IMG/VR virus record: IMGVR_UViG_3300009136_000002
Location: 11,156-75,155 of that record
Direction: 5' to 3' (one strand)
Origin: a virus
DNA: 64,000 nt
Shown: positions 2,814 through 8,181 of the stretch, one piece after another
How positions within the stretch are numbered: position 1 is the stretch's first letter
How the letters are laid out: the number at the start of each line of letters is the position of its first letter
Translations under genes and position numbers: made by a program
Notes under the pieces: model-generated
What the model was told of the DNA's origin: nothing
The model's database searches: none
The model's input: the letters and a program-made list of their open reading frames with translations, nothing else

Positions 2814-3007
2814 TTCTCCTTTCTGAATTTGTCTACCTCTGGACAGGTCGCGTGATGCGGCATATAGGATCTTGCCATCACCGCCTGACCCTCGGCGTTC
2901 ATAATGATCCTGGTTTCACTCTTGGCATCGGCAGGAATGTTCTTGCCTCTGACCGTCTTGAACCAAAGGATACTGGCTCCACAACCTTTACAAGTTGACT
3001 CACGCAT
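2810..3007 (-). CDS. Small zinc-finger protein
   Basis: CKGC...PHHATCP ligand set. Confidence 0.75.
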   Translation of the reverse strand: MRESTCKGCGASILWFKTVRGKNIPADAKSETRIIMNAEGQAVMARSYMPHHATCPEVDKFRKEK

Positions 3008-3536
3008 AATACATATTCCTCAGTCTCGGTCTTGTTGGGCTCTCTTCTATATCAGCCAAAAATCTCTTTTCATCAAACTTCCTGAATCCTCGAAACGCTG
3101 GCATTCCCACGATCACAGGCCAGGGCTGTGGCAGCATCTTTAACCCTCCTCGAACCTGGGGCTCTGAGGAGTAGTCTGCCAAGTCCTCTACTTTGGCCGT
3201 AGTAGTTGCGTACAGGCCTCCAGGCTCCAGATTACCGCAACCGCGTTGTTCGGTCTGTATGTCCTGGGGATCGTCGATGTAGTAGATTTTTCCGCGTATC
3301 TCAGGCTTGAGATCCGTGGTGAGGAGTCCATAGATTTGCTCGACAAAAAAATAGGCGAACACAACTGGATCAGGTTCGCCTTTCTCTCTAGTAACGCAGT
3401 AAATCTTGTCTCCCCAATTCATCTTTTTTAGATCGCGCTTGGGAACGCGGCGGGAGACACCCATCTTCTCGGCCTCTTGCATAAAAGACCGTGGGGAATA
3501 GTACACAGCCCCTACCCAATGAAGCCAAACAATCAT
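3000..3536 (-). CDS. Hypothetical protein, possibly PUA/EVE-like N-terminus
   Basis: 178 aa; the LKKMNWGDKIYCV...VFAYFFV pattern resembles EVE/ASCH folds (weak). Confidence 0.65.
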   Translation of the reverse strand: MIVWLHWVGAVYYSPRSFMQEAEKMGVSRRVPKRDLKKMNWGDKIYCVTREKGEPDPVVFAYFFVEQIYGLLTTDLKPEIRGKIYYIDDPQDIQTEQRGCGNLEPGGLYATTTAKVEDLADYSSEPQVRGGLKMLPQPWPVIVGMPAFRGFRKFDEKRFLADIEESPTRPRLRNMYYA

Positions 3537-3537
3537 A

Positions 3538-3807
3538 TTAACCCTCCAAGATTGCTTTCAATTTTTTCTGATCGTGATCCTTCCTGCTCCAATGCTTGAC
3601 CTTTGCTTTTATCCTCAACTGTGCTGCATCCTGGTATTTATTCAAAAGGTCGATGAATTCAGTATAATCTCCCCACCCGCGCTCTTCACCTTGCGGGGGG
3701 TTACGATAGCATGGATCACAAAGAGCATATCGTGTAGTCTCGCGCTGGCAACGCCAACACGGATGGGGAGGATAGTGTGTACGTTTAACTCGCTTTCCAG
3801 CCCCCAT
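3538..3807 (-). CDS. Zinc-finger protein directly downstream of rsr
   Basis: CWRC...LCDPC, basic. Confidence 0.65.
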   Translation of the reverse strand: MGAGKRVKRTHYPPHPCWRCQRETTRYALCDPCYRNPPQGEERGWGDYTEFIDLLNKYQDAAQLRIKAKVKHWSRKDHDQKKLKAILEG

Positions 3808-3810
3808 AGC

Positions 3811-5421
3811 CTACCTGTTTGCTATGAAGTCTCCGATTATGGCTGGGGCGGCAGTATCAAAGCCAACTACGTCCATCATCCCACCATCGGTAGGATCTGC
3901 GATGGAAAACTCGTTGCTTGCCAGCCCAACGACGACTAGCTTGGCCGGAATATCCATCTTCCGGCGGTAGTCCTCAAGCGCCTGAACCGGATGAACCTTC
4001 CCAGCCCAGGTTTCATTATCGGTGTAGATCACGAAGGCATCGGCCTCGACCTTATTCTTCAAGGCCCAAAGCATAGGCAAGGCGCAATCAGTCCCGCCAA
4101 AGGGCATCCCCTGGCAATGCTTAATCACATCGTCAAGCCTCTGATGCCTGGACATATTGATCTTGCGAAGCTCATGGGAGAAAGCCATGACCGCGCATTT
4201 CTCCTCGGTCTTGAATGTGACCATAGCCATCGCGCAAGCTCCGTCACGAGGAGTAAGGTAGGGCATCCCATTGATCCCTTCCCAATCCATAGAGCTAGAA
4301 ACGTCCAGGCCGATCACAATCCGCTTACCTGTGGGCTCAACATTTTCAAATGTCTTGTAGAATCCTGCATCCAGGGCATCCACAATATCCGGCACGGCAT
4401 CCCAATCACCCTTTCCCAGGTAGCCGCGACCTTCGCCATAGATTTTAAGCGCAGCCAGGACGTTAATCGGATGAATGCGGGCCTCTCGCAACTGATTGGG
4501 ACTAACGAGCCTGTCCCGAACCCTCTCAATTACGTCCCAATTCCCTGGAATCAAGAGGCCGACCTTACCCATGTTCCCCAGGTTCCGGATCATGGCGGTC
4601 ATAGGCATCCTCTGGAGCAAGGCCTCCCATACGTCCTTCTCAGTAAGGAAGTCAGTAGGGATTGCCTCTCGCGGCAGATTGTAAAGCTGAATGAAGTTGA
4701 CGATCTCATTCTTGTGCTTTGCTTTCTTGGCGTACTCGAATCCAGCCACGACATTCAGGGGGTGAGCCCCTCTCCATTTATCAGAGTTGGGAAGCTCAAG
4801 CTCCCCGCTCACGATCCATTTATACAGCGCATTCCTGTTTGCATCGTCGGTCTTGGGGTGAGACAGTCGGAGGAGATCCCTGTGGCTCCAGCCATCACGC
4901 TGCTGGTATTTCACGGCCTGATAAGCCAACTTCTCCACATCTTTGTCCTGATACCAATGCTTGACAGCATTGCGGAGTCCTCGACCCCACCCGCGAAAGG
5001 CCTTAACGTACTTGGCGAAATGGAACAGGTGCGTCCCGATCCGCGCTACCTTTGGCAGAGCGGCCAGGGCCATCGCTCGTGTCTCTTCATCACCCAGGCC
5101 AGCGCACATTGCCAGGACGAATAGGGCCGGATCATTCTTAGGGGCTCGTCCCTTAGTAGAAACGTCCACAACAGCACCGACAACTTTAGGGCCAGCCTTC
5201 TCGATCAAACGAGCAACGGCCTTTGCGCTGTCGATGGTTAGCTTGCGCTCTTTGATGTAGTAGGTTCCGCCTTCCGTTCCCAGCATCAGAAAGCGCATAA
5301 GCCGCTCTCCATCACCTACTGGAAACACATACCCACCCGCGCTATCCCTTATCATCTGCTTGCCAGGAATCGGCTCGGTCTGTGGGGTTTCCTTTGTCTG
5401 AAAATGCTTGGTGTAGTCCAT
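3811..5421 (-). CDS. rsr: Ro60 orthologue (Rsr), TROVE plus vWA domains
   Basis: N-terminal DSAGGYVF, LMRFLMLGTEGGTYY, GWGRGLR, KYQQRDGWSHRDLLRLSHPK, MPMTAMIRNL; vWA MIDAS DVSSSM, GGTDC and YTDNETW. Confidence 0.97.
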   Translation of the reverse strand: MDYTKHFQTKETPQTEPIPGKQMIRDSAGGYVFPVGDGERLMRFLMLGTEGGTYYIKERKLTIDSAKAVARLIEKAGPKVVGAVVDVSTKGRAPKNDPALFVLAMCAGLGDEETRAMALAALPKVARIGTHLFHFAKYVKAFRGWGRGLRNAVKHWYQDKDVEKLAYQAVKYQQRDGWSHRDLLRLSHPKTDDANRNALYKWIVSGELELPNSDKWRGAHPLNVVAGFEYAKKAKHKNEIVNFIQLYNLPREAIPTDFLTEKDVWEALLQRMPMTAMIRNLGNMGKVGLLIPGNWDVIERVRDRLVSPNQLREARIHPINVLAALKIYGEGRGYLGKGDWDAVPDIVDALDAGFYKTFENVEPTGKRIVIGLDVSSSMDWEGINGMPYLTPRDGACAMAMVTFKTEEKCAVMAFSHELRKINMSRHQRLDDVIKHCQGMPFGGTDCALPMLWALKNKVEADAFVIYTDNETWAGKVHPVQALEDYRRKMDIPAKLVVVGLASNEFSIADPTDGGMMDVVGFDTAAPAIIGDFIANR

Positions 5422-5445: not shown

Positions 5446-5513
5446 GGGGCAAGGAGTGAGTAAGGGATCGTTTTCAATTAGCAGTTGAATGATAACCCTA
5501 GCTCTTCGGCCCC
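5446..5513 (-). ncRNA. Mini Y-RNA-like unit E (68 nt) with Ser(GCU) anticodon stem-loop
   Basis: GGGGCCGAAGAGCUAGGGUUAUC-A-UUCAA-CUGCUAA-UUGAA-AACG-AUCCCUUACUCACUCCUUGCCCC; the ends pair into a Ro stem. Confidence 0.8.
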
Positions 5514-5524
5514 TGGTTAAAAGT

Positions 5525-5583
5525 CGGGCAAGTAGCGAACCAGCAGCTTTTCCTGATTAGGGTAACGCTGGCTCTTCGGCCCG
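5525..5583 (-). ncRNA. Mini Y-RNA-like unit D (59 nt)
   Basis: CGGGCCGAAGAGCCAGCGUUACC...UGCUGGUUCGCUACUUGCCCG; the upper stem differs from other units but keeps pairing. Confidence 0.8.
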
Positions 5584-5594
5584 TATAAAACTGA

Positions 5595-5703
5595 GTGGGC
5601 GAGTAGCGTCAAGGGATTGACCCCACCCTCGCGGGTGGCAGACCCTTTGTTGCTTAGGGGGTCTGTTAGGACTCGAACCTGATAACCCTTAACTTCGGCC
5701 CAC
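5595..5703 (-). ncRNA. YrlA-like Y RNA, unit C (109 nt)
   Basis: Ro stem GUGGGCCGAAGUUAAGGGUUAUC / AUCCCUUGACGCUACUCGCCCAC encloses a T-loop hairpin AGG-UUCGAGU-CCU, a closed stem CAGACCC/GGGUCUG and a hairpin CCACCC-GCGA-GGGUGG. Confidence 0.8.
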
Positions 5704-5715
5704 GCATTTTCGAGT

Positions 5716-5845
5716 TGGGGAGAGTGGTGGGACTCGAACCCACGGCCTCGCCATTTGCATTGGATAACCCTTAGCCATCGACCCGCAAGCGGGTAAGGAG
5801 CGGAAAGGGAATTTTCGCGCTCTAACCGACTGAGCTACACTCTCC
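5716..5845 (-). ncRNA. tRNA/Y-RNA chimera, unit B (130 nt): full cloverleaf, GCA anticodon, G-1:C73, encoded CCA, 52-nt Ro hairpin inserted between nt 28 and 29
   Basis: Acceptor GAGAGUG/CACUCUC, D arm GCUC-AGUCGGUUA-GAGC, anticodon arm CG[insert]CCA-AUGCAAA-UGGCG, variable loop AGGCC, T arm GUGGG-UUCGAGU-CCCAC. The insert (5764-5815) contains CCUUACCCGC-UU-GCGGGUCGAUGGCUAAGGGUUAU. Confidence 0.85.
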
Positions 5846-5850
5846 ATAGT

Positions 5851-5917
5851 TGGGCTAGGAATCATAGGACGGATTGGGGCAGGCGCGGCCTGCAGATAAC
5901 CATCCTACTTCGGCCCA
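5851..5917 (-). ncRNA. Mini Y-RNA-like unit A (67 nt)
   Basis: Begins immediately after the recT stop: UGGGCCGAAGUAGGAUGGUUAUC-U-GCAGGC-CGC-GCCUGC...CCGUCCUAUGAUUCCUAGCCCA. Confidence 0.8.
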
Positions 5918-7297
5918 TTACTCTTGTTCTTGTGATACTCCAAAGGTTGTGAATTCCGTGTCAGGATCGGTAGCAAAGCAATGTGAGAAATAGCCTGTGT
6001 ACCGTCCCATATACATTCGCTTAGTTAAAATGGCCCAATCGTGCCATGCTTTGAGCTGTATCCCAGCACCCTTGACAAACTTATCAATCTCCAGGGTGCG
6101 CTCGATGCTTGCCAACTGACCATCTAGTTCTTCCGGCGTTGCTTCTTCCGGCTCTTGCCCTGCGCCAAAGAGCGGCGGCTGTGCTGGTGGTTCAACTGGC
6201 GGCTCAACTGGCGGCTCAACTGGCGGCTCAACTGGCGGCTGCGGCGGTGGATCGACCATACTGAGCGGGCCTGTTGGTTCCGGCGATGCGAATGAAGGCC
6301 TCGGCCACGGTGTTCCCCAAAAGCGTTTGTGCTTGTCGTCCAATTCCTTGAGAACAGGGCTATCCGGCGGTAATAGGCCCAGCCGGACGATGTTCTCTTC
6401 TTTTGCGAGGAACGTGGTGAAGCCACTCGTTCTCAACCCGAAAAATTCTGCTATAAATTTTTCATCATCGGTTTCCGGTACAACTGGCGCTGGCGGTGGG
6501 GGCGGCACTATTGTATCAGCCAGCTTGTCCAGCCCTGTCTTTCCTGGTTCCTCGATAATCTCGCCTGTTTGTAAGTCAACGCCACTAATTACATCTAGTT
6601 GCTGATCTATCCCTGCCTCCGCTCTTTCGTCGAGACTCACGGCCAGGGACAGGGAATTGTCCACGACTGAGGACGGTAGGTACTTGACGCTGTGCCTAAT
6701 TGCTGTCTTTAAGGCCATTGCATCAAAGTCTGTTACCCAGGGGCCGGATCTTCCCGCTGGTGAGCGTTGCTGAACCGCCTTGATGTGGCTCATTGGGAGA
6801 ACCCTGAATTGAAACCCACCTTCCTTGTAAAATGCGATACAGTAAGCTGCTACCTGATCTCCGCGATCATGCTCCTCGTATGCTGGCTTGTGATGAATGT
6901 GGGGGTTAGATCCATGCTCGTAACTGAAACTATCTTTGGCATAGACTATGTGAGCCTCGATGTTCCGAAACTTGCCGGATCTCATAGCCAAGTCGATCAG
7001 ACCCATATACCCTGGGATAAACGTGACCTTCTTGGCAAAGGGAACCAAATGCGCCATATTTCTGACTCCATCCGGCTCCAGCCCCAACTGAGCGCACGTT
7101 AAGACCGCAGACAGTAAGCTCTGAGGCGTACAGTCCAGTAGCCCAGGCGTTAGCTGCACGGAGGTCATAACGATCCGGCTGAACCTGTCCACTCCGATCT
7201 GTTTTGGTAATGCAGCCGTGAGGGATTTTGAATGCTGATGGAGGAGCTGCTTTACCGATTGGATCTTGGTCTGTTGTGTCGTAAGTTGTCCGGTCAT
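5918..7297 (-). CDS. recT: RecT-family single-strand annealing protein with long Pro-rich C-terminal extension
   Basis: LLDCTPQSLLSAVLTCAQLGLEP, FIPGYMGLIDLAMRSG, SGPWVTDFDAMALKTAIR...KYLP. Start MTGQ at 7297 overlaps the yqaJ stop. Confidence 0.93.
   Translation of the reverse strand: MTGQLTTQQTKIQSVKQLLHQHSKSLTAALPKQIGVDRFSRIVMTSVQLTPGLLDCTPQSLLSAVLTCAQLGLEPDGVRNMAHLVPFAKKVTFIPGYMGLIDLAMRSGKFRNIEAHIVYAKDSFSYEHGSNPHIHHKPAYEEHDRGDQVAAYCIAFYKEGGFQFRVLPMSHIKAVQQRSPAGRSGPWVTDFDAMALKTAIRHSVKYLPSSVVDNSLSLAVSLDERAEAGIDQQLDVISGVDLQTGEIIEEPGKTGLDKLADTIVPPPPPAPVVPETDDEKFIAEFFGLRTSGFTTFLAKEENIVRLGLLPPDSPVLKELDDKHKRFWGTPWPRPSFASPEPTGPLSMVDPPPQPPVEPPVEPPVEPPVEPPAQPPLFGAGQEPEEATPEELDGQLASIERTLEIDKFVKGAGIQLKAWHDWAILTKRMYMGRYTGYFSHCFATDPDTEFTTFGVSQEQE
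6192..6239 (-). repeat. Four tandem 12-bp repeats encoding PPVE in RecT
   Basis: (TCAACTGGCGGC)x4 on the + strand. Confidence 0.9.
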
Positions 7298-8181
7298 GCC
7301 TTTCTCCTTAATGTTCTGACAGTTGCGGCATCTACCCAATATGCCTCTCTCTCATGGGCTACCCAGCTATACGTTACTCCGTTTGACAACACGCCGTAGC
7401 TTGCCAACTCTAGCTTGGACTTGATCTTGTTCTCCAGGGCTGTCTTTTCCTTTCTGAGCTGCTTTTCCTTCGCTTTGATCTCTTGTAAGTCCTCATCCCA
7501 CCAAAGAGCCTCCCCAGGTAGCGGAATGGATTCTCCGCTATCTTTGGGGTACTGGAAATGAAGGGCTTCTTTTGATGAATCTGAGTCGTCTACCGGAGGA
7601 GGATCTTGATTCTGAATTCGCTGCCAAAACTTGCCCTCTTCCTCGATAAGAATTTCCACAAAGCGGTCATTGCGTTGAACATCAACGATAAGATCGCTGT
7701 AGTCACCGAAGAATACAGCCAATGATCCCCACTCACTCCCTGTGACCGCCATTTCATGTTGGATCTGAACCTGATAATAAAGCGGTGGCTCCTCAAGCCA
7801 ATTACTCTTCATTCCAGGCCCACCAGTTTTGATCTGCAAGACCCCCTGGCCTCGATCATCAAAGGGCTCGATCAGGCGGTCTATGGTTGCCATCATAAAT
7901 TCATGCTCTGGATGCTGGTATATCGTAAAGTTGTCCGGCTTTATCGTGTCCCTACCAGTTTCCCTCTCGTAGTAGGCTGCAACTGCATCTTCGAGATCCA
8001 GACCCCATTGCATTCGCTGGTTCATTTCCTGCTCTGGCATCATCTTCAACTTGCGAAGATACAGCGATAGAGGGGATACCCAGGGGGAGATCCCCAAGAC
8101 CGCCGCAGCCTCAGACCCGCCGATCCCACCCATCCGAGCCTCAAGCCATTCGTCACGATTTTTATGAGATTTCCATTTCAT
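7294..8181 (-). CDS. YqaJ/lambda-exonuclease-like recombination nuclease
   Basis: WLEAR..GIGGSEAAAVLG.SPW, G..LE, ATIDR, LQIKT (EIK variant), YYQVQIQHEM.VTG. Confidence 0.92.
   Translation of the reverse strand: MKWKSHKNRDEWLEARMGGIGGSEAAAVLGISPWVSPLSLYLRKLKMMPEQEMNQRMQWGLDLEDAVAAYYERETGRDTIKPDNFTIYQHPEHEFMMATIDRLIEPFDDRGQGVLQIKTGGPGMKSNWLEEPPLYYQVQIQHEMAVTGSEWGSLAVFFGDYSDLIVDVQRNDRFVEILIEEEGKFWQRIQNQDPPPVDDSDSSKEALHFQYPKDSGESIPLPGEALWWDEDLQEIKAKEKQLRKEKTALENKIKSKLELASYGVLSNGVTYSWVAHEREAYWVDAATVRTLRRKA

What the first reader, a model, noticed from the sequence alone, without database searches (positions are those of the whole stretch)
5716..5845. Complete tRNA with a Ro-binding hairpin grafted into the anticodon stem; His-type acceptor with Cys anticodon
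Seen: removing 5764-5815 leaves a canonical cloverleaf with a 7-bp acceptor, U8A9, D arm, 5-bp anticodon stem CGCCA/UGGCG, loop AU-GCA-AA, AGGCC variable loop, T arm and encoded CCA. The 52-nt insert is the Ro stem in permuted order (3' strand first, closed by GC-UU-GC). Known: typical YrlA has the opposite topology, with the Ro stem at the free ends, the acceptor closed and no anticodon arm. G-1:C73 is the main bacterial HisRS identity element, whereas CysRS needs U73 and GCA. Inference: this RNA could be matured by RNase P, possibly charged, and held by Ro. It could be a tRNA decoy, an aminoacyl carrier on Ro, or the processing signal that releases the flanking units. A32 is atypical, so the anticodon arm may be a relic.
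Basis: partly seen in the sequence, partly recalled or inferred. Interest (0 to 1): 0.88.

Follow-up and report, generated by a model that had tools for sequence, protein, structure and literature searches.

The report
tRNA-shaped Y RNA beside phage Ro60
Next to its Ro60 gene, this phage encodes a small RNA built like a complete tRNA with the Ro60-docking hairpin of Y RNAs as a side arm on its anticodon stem; it belongs to a large family I could not find in print and is most likely a Ro60 partner RNA, not a working tRNA.

Summary
Rfam's tRNA model scores it at 46.9 bits with a 65-nt gap. ARAGORN calls nothing in the intact element and tRNA-Cys(GCA) once 5815-5764 is removed in silico. The insert carries the same two Ro-handle strands as the four neighbouring Y-RNA modules, in swapped order and closed by a tetraloop.

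My covariance models found 64 such elements in 40 of 90 Ro60 sources, spanning phages and many bacterial phyla, all on the rsr strand. In five whole genomes they occur only at the rsr locus. Every helix covaries, including the 3-bp mini anticodon stem.

Two readings change. G-1:C73 is a family-wide covarying eighth acceptor pair, not specifically a His mark. The 7-nt loop keeps the tRNA frame (U33, R37, A38) while its triplet varies widely, with 24 different triplets in 32 loops, so "Cys" is not an identity.

Best reading: this is a non-permuted form of YrlA-type Y RNA that displays an anticodon loop. Binding, processing and charging remain untested.

This scan has already reported the same design on other DNA (about 50 notes). 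I found no published description or Rfam family.

The parts
5716..5845 (-). Whole tRNA-shaped Y RNA (130 nt, from G-1 to the encoded CCA).
   Evidence: Rfam tRNA 46.9 bits. My models R1 and R2 score it 162 and 132 bits. Coordinates checked.
5838..5845 (-). G-1 plus the 5' strand of the acceptor stem. It pairs with 5719-5726 to give an 8-bp stem.
   Evidence: All 8 pairs covary in 25 homologues. The -1:73 pair was not part of model R1. The -2:74 position pairs in only 12 of 51.
5819..5837 (-). U8A9 and the D arm, with G18G19.
   Evidence: UA at positions 8-9 occurs in 54 of 64 family members, and the D arm is nearly invariant.
5816..5817 (-). C27G28, the proximal 2 bp of the anticodon stem, pairing with 5749-5750.
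   Evidence: Both pairs covary (CG/GC/UA).
5810..5815 (-). A-rich 5' junction (AAAAUU).
   Evidence: This junction starts with AA in 12 of the 32 members that have a mini anticodon arm.
5791..5809 (-). Ro-handle strand of the kind that lies 3' in ordinary Y RNAs (the ..CCUUACCC type).
   Evidence: The same strand type occurs in the four neighbouring modules. Helices 4 and 5 covary.
5785..5790 (-). Cap: a CUUG tetraloop with its closing G-C pair.
   Evidence: L071 has a GCAA tetraloop here instead. The length of the cap varies across the family.
5768..5784 (-). Ro-handle strand of the kind that lies 5' in ordinary Y RNAs (GGGUCGAU..AAGGG), including the bulged C at 5780.
   Evidence: It matches the GNCGAA motif of Chen 2014 (PMC4201824) with one mismatch. 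G.CG is conserved across alignment A4.
5764..5767 (-). UUAU 3' junction, part of the conserved GGGUUAU motif.
   Evidence: UUAU occurs in 39 of 64 family members. The motif is also present in modules M1, M3 and M5.
5751..5763 (-). Mini anticodon stem-loop: 3 bp plus the 7-nt loop AUGCAAA.
   Evidence: All 3 pairs covary. Family loop frame: U33 in 29/32, R37 in 29/32, A38 in 25/32. The 3' strand 39-43 is unbroken in 31 of 32.
5716..5750 (-). Positions 42-43, variable loop AGGCC, T arm, 3' strand of the acceptor, C73 and CCA.
5851..5917 (-). Context: Y module M1, a simple Ro-handle hairpin that starts 1 nt after the recT stop codon.
   Evidence: Folds as a hairpin with z = -4.7. Coordinates.
5596..5702 (-). 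Context: module M3, a permuted YrlA-like RNA with a closed acceptor-like stem.
   Evidence: Read. The L071 copy shows compensatory changes. It is not detected by Rfam YrlA.
5446..5583 (-). Context: simple Y modules M4 and M5. M5 displays a 5-bp stem with a 7-nt anticodon-like loop.
   Evidence: The L071 copy of M5 keeps the loop and has two compensatory stem changes.
3811..5421 (-). Ro60/Rsr gene (536 aa), directly downstream of the array.
   Evidence: Pfam vWA_Ro60 at 1.6e-67 and TROVE at 2.7e-41.

Best explanation
Shown: this is a Y RNA, meaning a partner RNA of Ro60, in a wiring not described in the papers I could search. It has a complete, non-permuted tRNA body. A loop-closed copy of the Ro60-docking helix branches from the 5' strand of the anticodon stem between positions 28 and 29. 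The remaining 3 bp and a 7-nt loop complete a normal-length anticodon arm. It is one of five Ro-handle modules that fill the recT-rsr gap of a roughly 75-kb phage.

Inferred mechanism:
1. The array is transcribed together with recT and rsr.
2. The tRNA part is recognised by the host tRNA end-processing enzymes. RNase P probably cuts one position upstream because -1 pairs with 73. This defines the RNA's ends and helps to release its neighbours.
3. Ro60 docks on the side hairpin.
4. The particle then presents a tRNA look-alike, anticodon loop included, to tRNA-binding proteins.

The scaffold is generic while the triplet varies widely. The most likely partners are therefore proteins that read anticodon loops. 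My leading guess is tRNA-cutting nucleases of bacterial defence or toxin systems, with the RNA acting as decoy, competitor or sensor. This extends the competitive-inhibitor idea already voiced for YrlA in PMC7790460. I do not think it decodes on the ribosome.
For: 1. tRNA body. Rfam tRNA scores 46.9 bits. The full tertiary set is present: U8-A14, G18G19, G15:C48 and the UUCGAGU T loop. ARAGORN calls a tRNA only after the insert is removed.

2. Ro handle. The two strands of the insert match those of the four adjacent modules, but in swapped order. They carry the G.CGA motif of bacterial Y RNAs (PMC4201824). The Rfam model of nematode Y-RNA homologues (RF01656) reaches its gathering score on simple sister modules in 6 rsr loci.

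3. Family. Model R2 finds 64 elements of 105-330 nt in 40 of 90 Ro60 sources, all on the rsr strand. In five whole genomes of 4.5-12.6 Mb, every long hit lies in the rsr locus.

4. Structure. In 25 homologues, 98.3% of cells are paired and 29 of 33 pairs show changes on both sides. None of 500 shuffles reaches this, and sliding the partners drops pairing to 37-49%.

5. The anticodon arm is under constraint. The mini stem covaries. The loop frame is conserved while positions 34-36 are nearly uniform. The 3' strand is unbroken in 31 of 32.

6. It is not an isoacceptor. Triplets include A34 forms. 4 of 7 triplets duplicate a regular tRNA of the same array. The bodies are not closest to the same-anticodon tRNA. 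Position 73 is C where CysRS needs U73 (textbook knowledge).

7. Co-transcription. There is no promoter-like or terminator-like site between recT, the array and rsr. The array starts 1 nt after the recT stop codon.
Against:
- The single-sequence MFE fold differs from the proposed structure (-48.6 against -33.4 kcal/mol).
- The handle reads GUCGAU, one mismatch from GNCGAA.
- Whether Ro60 accepts a helix whose outer end is closed by a loop has not been shown.
- The alignments were fitted to my own models, which favours the modelled pairs. The -1:73 pair in A4 is the exception.
- About a third of family members lack the mini anticodon arm (22 of 64), so it is not essential to the core function.
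- No conserved protein partner other than Ro60 appeared in the flanks I sampled.
- The phage has no RtcB, RNA ligase or CCA-adding enzyme.
- The decoy function is pure inference.
Confidence: 0.7

Rival explanations
1. It is a genuine decoding tRNA-Cys(GCA) of the phage. The 52-nt hairpin is either an intron-like insert removed before use or an expansion the ribosome tolerates.
For: ARAGORN calls tRNA-Cys(gca) after in-silico removal of the insert. The tertiary nucleotides are complete and CCA is encoded. The phage has no other tRNA.
Against: - Position 73 is C, whereas CysRS needs U73. The Levitt pair is G15:C48, not G15:G48 (established identity rules, read).
- The insert is the same Ro handle as in the four neighbouring non-tRNA modules.
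- By inspection there is no bulge-helix-bulge junction. Rfam gives no group I intron hit. No bacterial enzyme is known to cut at such a junction.
- Family triplets include A34 forms, some loops have 6, 8 or 9 nt, and a third of members have no loop.
- The elements occur only beside rsr.
- The bodies are not those of the matching isoacceptor.
- The phage has no RNA ligase.
Confidence: 0.06
2. It is a histidine-accepting RNA held on Ro60. G-1:C73 plus CCA would make it a HisRS substrate, so the particle would carry an aminoacyl group.
For: G-1:C73 and CCA are present in the window, in L071 and in L018:5194. In E. coli, G-1:C73 is the main His identity element (textbook knowledge). G:C is the commonest -1:73 pair among the long elements (16 of 51), against 2 of 42 ordinary tRNAs from the same loci.
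Against: - Across the family this position covaries to U:A, A:U and C:G, so pairing is what is conserved, not G-1.
- CCA is encoded in only 10 of 64 members.
- No triplet is GUG.
- No charging data exist.
Confidence: 0.1
3. Its main job is punctuation. The tRNA shape serves only as an RNase P / RNase Z signal that cuts the five-module transcript into single Y RNAs, and the Ro hairpin and anticodon loop are passengers.
For: The array sits between recT and rsr with no promoter or terminator. Spacers between modules are 5-13 nt. M. smegmatis YrlA is cut by RNase P (PMC4201824).
Against: - Modules M3, M4 and M5 follow one another with no tRNA between them.
- Many loci have a single element.
- The Ro hairpin and the mini anticodon arm inside the element are themselves conserved by covariation.
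- This role is compatible with the best explanation as a secondary function.
Confidence: 0.1
4. It is a decayed tRNA gene, an attachment-site remnant or a chance cloverleaf with no function.
For: ARAGORN does not call it. The MFE fold differs from the proposed structure.
Against: There are 64 homologues with compensatory changes in every helix. The L071 copy, whose Rsr is 76% identical, has double changes in the acceptor, T and Ro helices.
Confidence: 0.02

Closest known systems
YrlA (Y RNA-like A; Rfam RF02553; Chen et al. 2014, PMC4201824; structure in Wang et al. 2018, 10.1101/312249)
   Same: Both are encoded beside rsr. Both combine a Ro-docking helix carrying the G.CGA motif with a tRNA-like D arm, T arm and acceptor stem and the tertiary nucleotides that give an L shape. 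In both, the Ro helix extends from the anticodon-stem side.
   Different: YrlA is circularly permuted. Its Ro helix is formed by the 5' and 3' ends, the T arm precedes the D arm, the acceptor is closed by a loop, there is no free CCA and there is no anticodon loop. Here the order is that of a normal tRNA. The acceptor is open with 8 bp and an encoded CCA, the Ro helix is loop-closed, and a 7-nt anticodon-like loop is kept. The Rfam YrlA model scores only 12.5 bits against a cut-off of 69.
[quoted passage not shown]
   Same: The end product has an open acceptor with CCA and a Ro stem at the other end of the L, which is the same overall shape as this RNA.
   Different: That product is two pieces made by cutting a permuted precursor, and it has no anticodon loop. 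Here a single chain has this shape as encoded.
D. radiodurans Yrn1 (PMC4201824)
   Same: It is a Y RNA that can be drawn with a T arm and a possible anticodon arm with a 5-bp stem.
   Different: In Yrn1 the Ro stem takes the place of the acceptor stem, the D arm is doubtful and the loop has 6 nt.
Metazoan Y RNAs and nematode stem-bulge RNAs (RF00019, RF01656)
   Same: Both have a bulged Ro-docking helix. From memory, human Y RNAs share the ..CCGA.. and GGGUUAU motifs on the 5' strand. RF01656 reaches its gathering score on simple sister modules in 6 rsr loci.
   Different: They have no tRNA body, and the helix is formed by the RNA ends.
Bacterial tRNA-His
   Same: It has an eighth acceptor pair, G-1:C73, followed by CCA.
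   Different: There is no GUG anticodon. In this family the pair covaries to U:A and others, and the element carries the Ro hairpin.
Archaeal tRNAs with non-canonical introns, and permuted or split tRNA genes
   Same: Extra sequence interrupts the tRNA body outside position 37/38.
   Different: By inspection there is no bulge-helix-bulge junction, and no splicing endonuclease is known in bacteria. The insert is a conserved protein-docking helix shared with non-tRNA modules.
b7a-tRNA of Burroughs and Aravind 2016, as cited in 10.1101/312249. The paper itself is not held, so I could not read it.
   Same: It is a tRNA-like RNA proposed to work in RNA-repair or conflict systems, occasionally beside Rsr.
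   Different: It is described as closely resembling an authentic tRNA. I could not check whether any of its members carries a Ro hairpin.

Membership tests
YrlA (Rfam RF02553) | Scores at or above the family's covariance-model cut-off (69 bits). | tested here: not met
   The best match in the phage genome scores 12.5 bits, E 0.6, and it spans M1 plus the 5' half of this element. No YrlA match at gathering score in the 39 other rsr loci scanned.
YrlA (Rfam RF02553) | Circularly permuted order: the Ro stem formed by the RNA ends, the T arm before the D arm, and the acceptor closed by a loop. | tested here: not met
   The order is acceptor, D arm, Ro hairpin, mini anticodon arm, T arm, acceptor, with open ends.
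YrlA (Rfam RF02553) | tRNA-like D and T arms with the elbow nucleotides, encoded beside rsr. | tested here: met
   G18G19 and a UUCGAGU T loop are present. rsr starts 295 nt downstream on the same strand.
Y RNA in the broad sense (Ro60 partner RNA) | A bulged helix with a conserved 5'-strand motif (GNCGAA) and a matching 3' strand. | tested here: met
   GUCGAU has one mismatch to the motif, with a bulged C. Both strands match the four neighbouring modules. The helices covary.
Y RNA in the broad sense (Ro60 partner RNA) | Physically bound by Ro60. | not testable with these tools
   This needs co-immunoprecipitation or a gel shift.
Canonical tRNA (RF00005) | A cloverleaf reaching the Rfam cut-off of 29 bits. 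| tested here: met
   46.9 bits, with all 71 model positions matched.
Canonical tRNA (RF00005) | A continuous 5-bp anticodon stem, so that the gene is recognised by a tRNA finder. | tested here: not met
   ARAGORN makes no call in the window or the genome. The stem is split 2+3 by a 52-nt branch.
tRNA-Cys | GCA anticodon together with U73 and the G15:G48 pair. | tested here: not met
   GCA is present, but position 73 is C and the pair is G15:C48. The identity rules come from established knowledge.
tRNA-His | G-1:C73 together with a GUG anticodon. | tested here: inconclusive
   G-1:C73 is present and GUG is absent. The pair covaries across the family, so it need not signal His.
tRNA with an intron (group I or bulge-helix-bulge) | A recognisable intron fold or splice junction. 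| tested here: not met
   No group I hit appears in Rfam at E up to 10. The junctions AAAAUU and UUAU do not form a bulge-helix-bulge (by inspection).
Non-permuted tRNA-shaped Y RNAs (family defined here and in earlier notes of this scan) | tRNA order, a loop-closed Ro helix branching from the anticodon stem, beside rsr and on its strand. | tested here: met
   This element is the top hit of R1 and R2, alongside 63 other members. Such elements lie only at the rsr locus in 5 whole genomes.

The most novel reading that the evidence does not exclude
Ro60 particles of phages and bacteria display anticodon stem-loops, either on a generic tRNA scaffold or on simple Y hairpins. These would act as decoys or tripwires for nucleases and other factors that read anticodon loops, and the wide variety of triplets would reflect an arms race with such factors. 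In addition, the non-permuted form would be the evolutionary source of YrlA. A tandem duplicate of it contains a permuted YrlA between the two Ro hairpins.
Probability: 0.2. Interest if true: 0.85.

Novelty: new variant of a known kind. Interest (0 to 1): 0.7.

Why it matters
Ro60 and Y RNAs are conserved from bacteria to humans, yet what the variable part of a Y RNA binds is still largely unknown.

- A widespread Y-RNA form with free tRNA ends and a displayed anticodon loop gives a concrete hypothesis to test: the partners are proteins that read tRNA anticodon loops.
- The form fills lineages where published searches found few YrlA RNAs. PMC4201824 reports this for delta-proteobacteria.
- It offers a simple route for the origin of permuted YrlA.
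- It explains a class of 'tRNA with a huge insertion' hits that genome annotators would otherwise miscall or miss.
- In this phage it is the only tRNA-shaped gene. It lies in an operon with recombination genes, which points to a role early in infection.

Tried and rejected
- blastn of the array against 50,697 phage records gave no match.
- Thermodynamic folding of the element alone does not give the cloverleaf. I relied on covariation instead.
- Search for a conserved protein partner. Pfam on 10 flanking ORFs from 9 bacterial loci gave unrelated families or nothing. The two small ORFs downstream of the phage rsr have no Pfam hit.
- The phage genome has no RtcB, RNA ligase (PF09414) or CCA-adding enzyme.
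- Do the chimeras supply anticodons missing from the neighbouring tRNA arrays? No: 4 of 7 duplicate a regular tRNA.
- Is each chimera derived from the local tRNA with the same anticodon? No. The first apparent matches were ARAGORN calls inside the chimeras themselves. After removing these, the nearest tRNAs have other anticodons.
- Does the acceptor helix continue beyond -1:73? No: -2:74 pairs in only 12 of 51.
- Papers not held: the Annual Review 2020, the Microbiology Spectrum 2018 review, and Burroughs and Aravind 2016. 'Not in print' therefore means not found in what I could search.

Full report
WHERE AND WHAT. The flagged stretch is transcribed from the minus strand. The minus-strand order is a YqaJ-type exonuclease gene (7294-8181), recT (5918-7339), a 490-nt non-coding gap, and then a 536-aa Ro60/Rsr gene (3811-5421; Pfam vWA_Ro60 1.6e-67, TROVE 2.7e-41). 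The record is a single 75-kb virus contig rated complete. Five modules fill the gap, and each carries the same pair of handle strands. The first module starts one base after the recT stop codon. The simple scan found no promoter-like or terminator-like site between recT, the array and rsr, so co-transcription is likely, though this is inferred.

Reading 5845 to 5716 gives the following, all checked:
- G-1, a 7-bp acceptor stem, U8A9 and a standard D arm with G18G19
- two base pairs of anticodon stem, then a 52-nt insert (5815-5764)
- three more base pairs closed by the 7-nt loop AUGCAAA
- a 5-nt variable loop, a standard T arm, C73 and an encoded CCA

Rfam's tRNA model scores the element at 46.9 bits (cut-off 29), treating the anticodon region as a 65-nt insertion. 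ARAGORN finds no tRNA in the window or anywhere in the phage. Once the insert is removed in silico it calls tRNA-Cys(gca).

THE INSERT IS A RO HANDLE IN SWAPPED ORDER. Ordinary Y modules in this array run 5' strand (GGGCCGAAG...GGGUUAUC), variable loop, 3' strand (...CUUGCCC). The insert has the 3'-type strand first (5809-5791), then a CUUG tetraloop, then the 5'-type strand (5784-5768) with the bulged C and the G.CGA core of the GNCGAA motif described for bacterial Y RNAs (PMC4201824). The motif here is GUCGAU, one mismatch. In six other rsr loci, the simple sister modules reach the gathering score of the Rfam model for nematode stem-bulge RNAs, which are Y-RNA homologues.

IT IS A LARGE FAMILY TIED TO RO60. 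Long tRNA hits upstream of rsr appeared first in four viral loci. The closest, L071 (Rsr 76% identical), has an identical mini anticodon arm. It also has compensatory double changes in the acceptor, T and Ro helices, and a GCAA tetraloop in place of CUUG.

I built a covariance model from these two sequences using my hand-drawn structure (R1). A second model was built from 25 hits (R2). At E below 1e-7, R2 finds 64 elements of 105-330 nt in 40 of 90 Ro60 sources. All lie on the rsr strand. By record title they come from Polyangiaceae, Haliangiales, Gemmatimonadaceae, Deinococcales, Chloroflexi, Brocadia, Chthonomonas, Planctomycetes, Verrucomicrobia, an Enterobacterales MAG and phages. Scanning five whole genomes of 4.5-12.6 Mb with R1 placed every long hit inside the rsr locus; all other hits were ordinary 77-nt tRNAs.

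STRUCTURE BY COVARIATION. On the 25-sequence alignment, 98.3% of cells are paired and 29 of 33 pairs change on both sides. None of 500 shuffles reaches the observed values, and sliding the partners by 1-3 columns drops pairing to 37-49%. Every helix covaries. This includes the two proximal anticodon-stem pairs, both parts of the Ro helix and the 3-bp mini stem. The caveat is that the alignment was fitted to my model. The single-sequence MFE is a different fold (-48.6 against -33.4 kcal/mol), which is common for tRNAs and for protein-bound internal loops.

First, the '-1:73 His mark'. This pair was left unpaired in model R1, yet it is complementary in 22 of 25 sequences (GC 11, UA 8, AU 1, CG 1, UG 1). 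In the larger set it pairs in 43 of 51 elements, against 20 of 42 ordinary tRNAs from the same loci (Fisher p = 3e-4). Position -2:74 pairs in only 12 of 51. The family therefore has an 8-bp acceptor stem. What is conserved is the pairing, not G-1. From what is known of tRNA-His processing, such a pair should shift RNase P cleavage by one position. That is an inference to be tested.

Second, the 'Cys anticodon'. Thirty-two members have the 3-bp stem and a 7-nt loop. In these, position 33 is U in 29, position 32 is a pyrimidine in 27, position 37 is a purine in 29 and position 38 is A in 25. Positions 34-36 are close to uniform, with 24 different triplets including A34 forms that bacteria hardly use. 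The 3' strand 39-43 is unbroken in 31 of 32. The 2+3 pairs can therefore stack into a normal 5-bp anticodon stem, with the Ro hairpin emerging sideways. The arm is thus under constraint and is not a relic, but the triplet does not define an isoacceptor:
- Position 73 is C where CysRS needs U73, and the 15:48 pair is G:C.
- Chimera triplets duplicate a regular tRNA of the same array in 4 of 7 cases.
- The bodies are not closest to the tRNA with the same anticodon (after discarding the self-hits).
- Twenty-two of 64 members have no mini arm at all.

COMPARISON WITH WHAT IS KNOWN. Published YrlA RNAs are circularly permuted tRNA mimics. The Ro helix is formed by the RNA ends, the T arm comes before the D arm, the acceptor is closed, and there is no free CCA and no anticodon loop (10.1101/312249; PMC4201824). 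[quoted passage not shown] D. radiodurans Yrn1 has the Ro stem in the acceptor position.

The Rfam YrlA model gives only 12.5 bits here against a cut-off of 69. Even that match is the 'permuted reading' across M1 and the 5' half of this element. It gives no hit at threshold in 39 other rsr loci. I found no description of the non-permuted form in the searchable literature. Three key reviews and papers are not held. This scan has already reported the same design on other DNA, with about 50 notes in 47 or more genomes. I reached the same reading independently before looking those up.

HOW IT MOST LIKELY WORKS.
- Shown: the anatomy, the conservation and the exclusive linkage to rsr.
- Inferred: the RNA is cut from the recT-rsr transcript by the host tRNA end-processing enzymes and is docked on Ro60 through the side hairpin. 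It then presents a tRNA look-alike, with an exposed elbow, an acceptor end and an anticodon loop.

The scaffold is generic and the triplet varies. Simple Y modules also place a 7-nt, anticodon-like loop directly after GGGUUAUC. Module M5 shows this with two compensatory changes in L071, and so do L045, L040 and L022. I therefore favour partners that read anticodon loops. PMC7790460 suggested that YrlA might competitively inhibit an anticodon nuclease, and a displayed anticodon loop fits that idea better than YrlA itself does. This step is speculative; I put it at about 0.2-0.3.

A punctuation role for RNase P and RNase Z in releasing the neighbouring modules is compatible, but it cannot be the whole story. 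Decoding on the ribosome, histidylation and chance are ranked lower, for the reasons given under the rivals.

EVOLUTIONARY NOTE (inference). Take two tandem copies of a non-permuted element. The stretch from the Ro 5'-type strand of the first copy to the Ro 3'-type strand of the second is exactly a permuted YrlA, with the acceptor closed by the spacer. Tandem copies with near-identical acceptor stems do exist, for example L018:4984 with L018:5422 and L002:1913 with L002:2067. This gives the dimeric-tRNA origin model of Sim and Wolin (quoted) a concrete intermediate.

VERDICT. This is a new variant of a known kind (Y RNA / YrlA-type tRNA mimic). It is strongly supported as a structure and as a Ro60-linked family, and untested as to binding, processing and function.

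Noticed in passing
window 5446-5513 (-); L071 2585-2655: Simple Y module M5 places a 5-bp stem with the 7-nt loop CUGCUAA (a tRNA-like C32-U33-NNN-A37-A38 frame) directly after GGGUUAUC. L071 keeps the loop and has two compensatory stem changes. Similar 7-nt loops follow GGGUUAUC in simple modules of L045, L040 and L022.
   Followed up: partly
L018, L022, L049, L024, L021, L040, L007 (whole loci): In many bacterial MAGs rsr sits inside a dense tRNA array, for example 31 ARAGORN tRNAs in the 7.6 kb of L018. Ordinary tRNAs and tRNA-shaped Y RNAs are interleaved on one strand.
   Followed up: partly
L059:4690-4755, L045:2426-2494, L042:86-154, L020:1094-1163, L040:2865-2937, L022:2869-2938: The Rfam model for nematode stem-bulge sRNAs (RF01656, Y-RNA homologues) reaches its gathering score on bacterial simple Y modules beside rsr.
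   Followed up: no
window 5596-5702 (-): Module M3 is a permuted YrlA-like RNA. The D-arm position holds a GC-rich hairpin with a GCGA tetraloop and no G18G19. It is conserved with compensatory changes in L071, and Rfam YrlA does not detect it.
   Followed up: partly
L029:2058-2194, L037:2648-2801, L022:2061-2241, L038:2273-2477, L065:2390-2516: These Verrucomicrobial variants have a second T-arm-like hairpin (GCAGGUUCGACUCCUGC) in the D-arm position. The mini loop is usually CUCAUAA or CUUGUAA and the 3' end is ACCA or UCCA.
   Followed up: no
L059:2418-2749; L027:2621-2850; L012:2624-2854: In these family members the branch between the two halves of the tRNA is 140-240 nt long, possibly holding several modules.
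   Followed up: no
window 6188-6245 (-), inside recT: A 12-nt tandem repeat occurs about four times, giving PPVEP repeats in a proline-rich C-terminal extension of RecT.
   Followed up: no
whole phage genome (G000): ARAGORN finds no canonical tRNA or tmRNA, and there is no RtcB, PF09414 RNA ligase or CCA-adding enzyme. The chimera is the only tRNA-shaped gene.
   Followed up: yes
window 3000-3807 (-): Two ORFs of 89 and 178 aa lie directly downstream of rsr on the same strand and have no Pfam family. They could be part of the Ro60 module.
   Followed up: no
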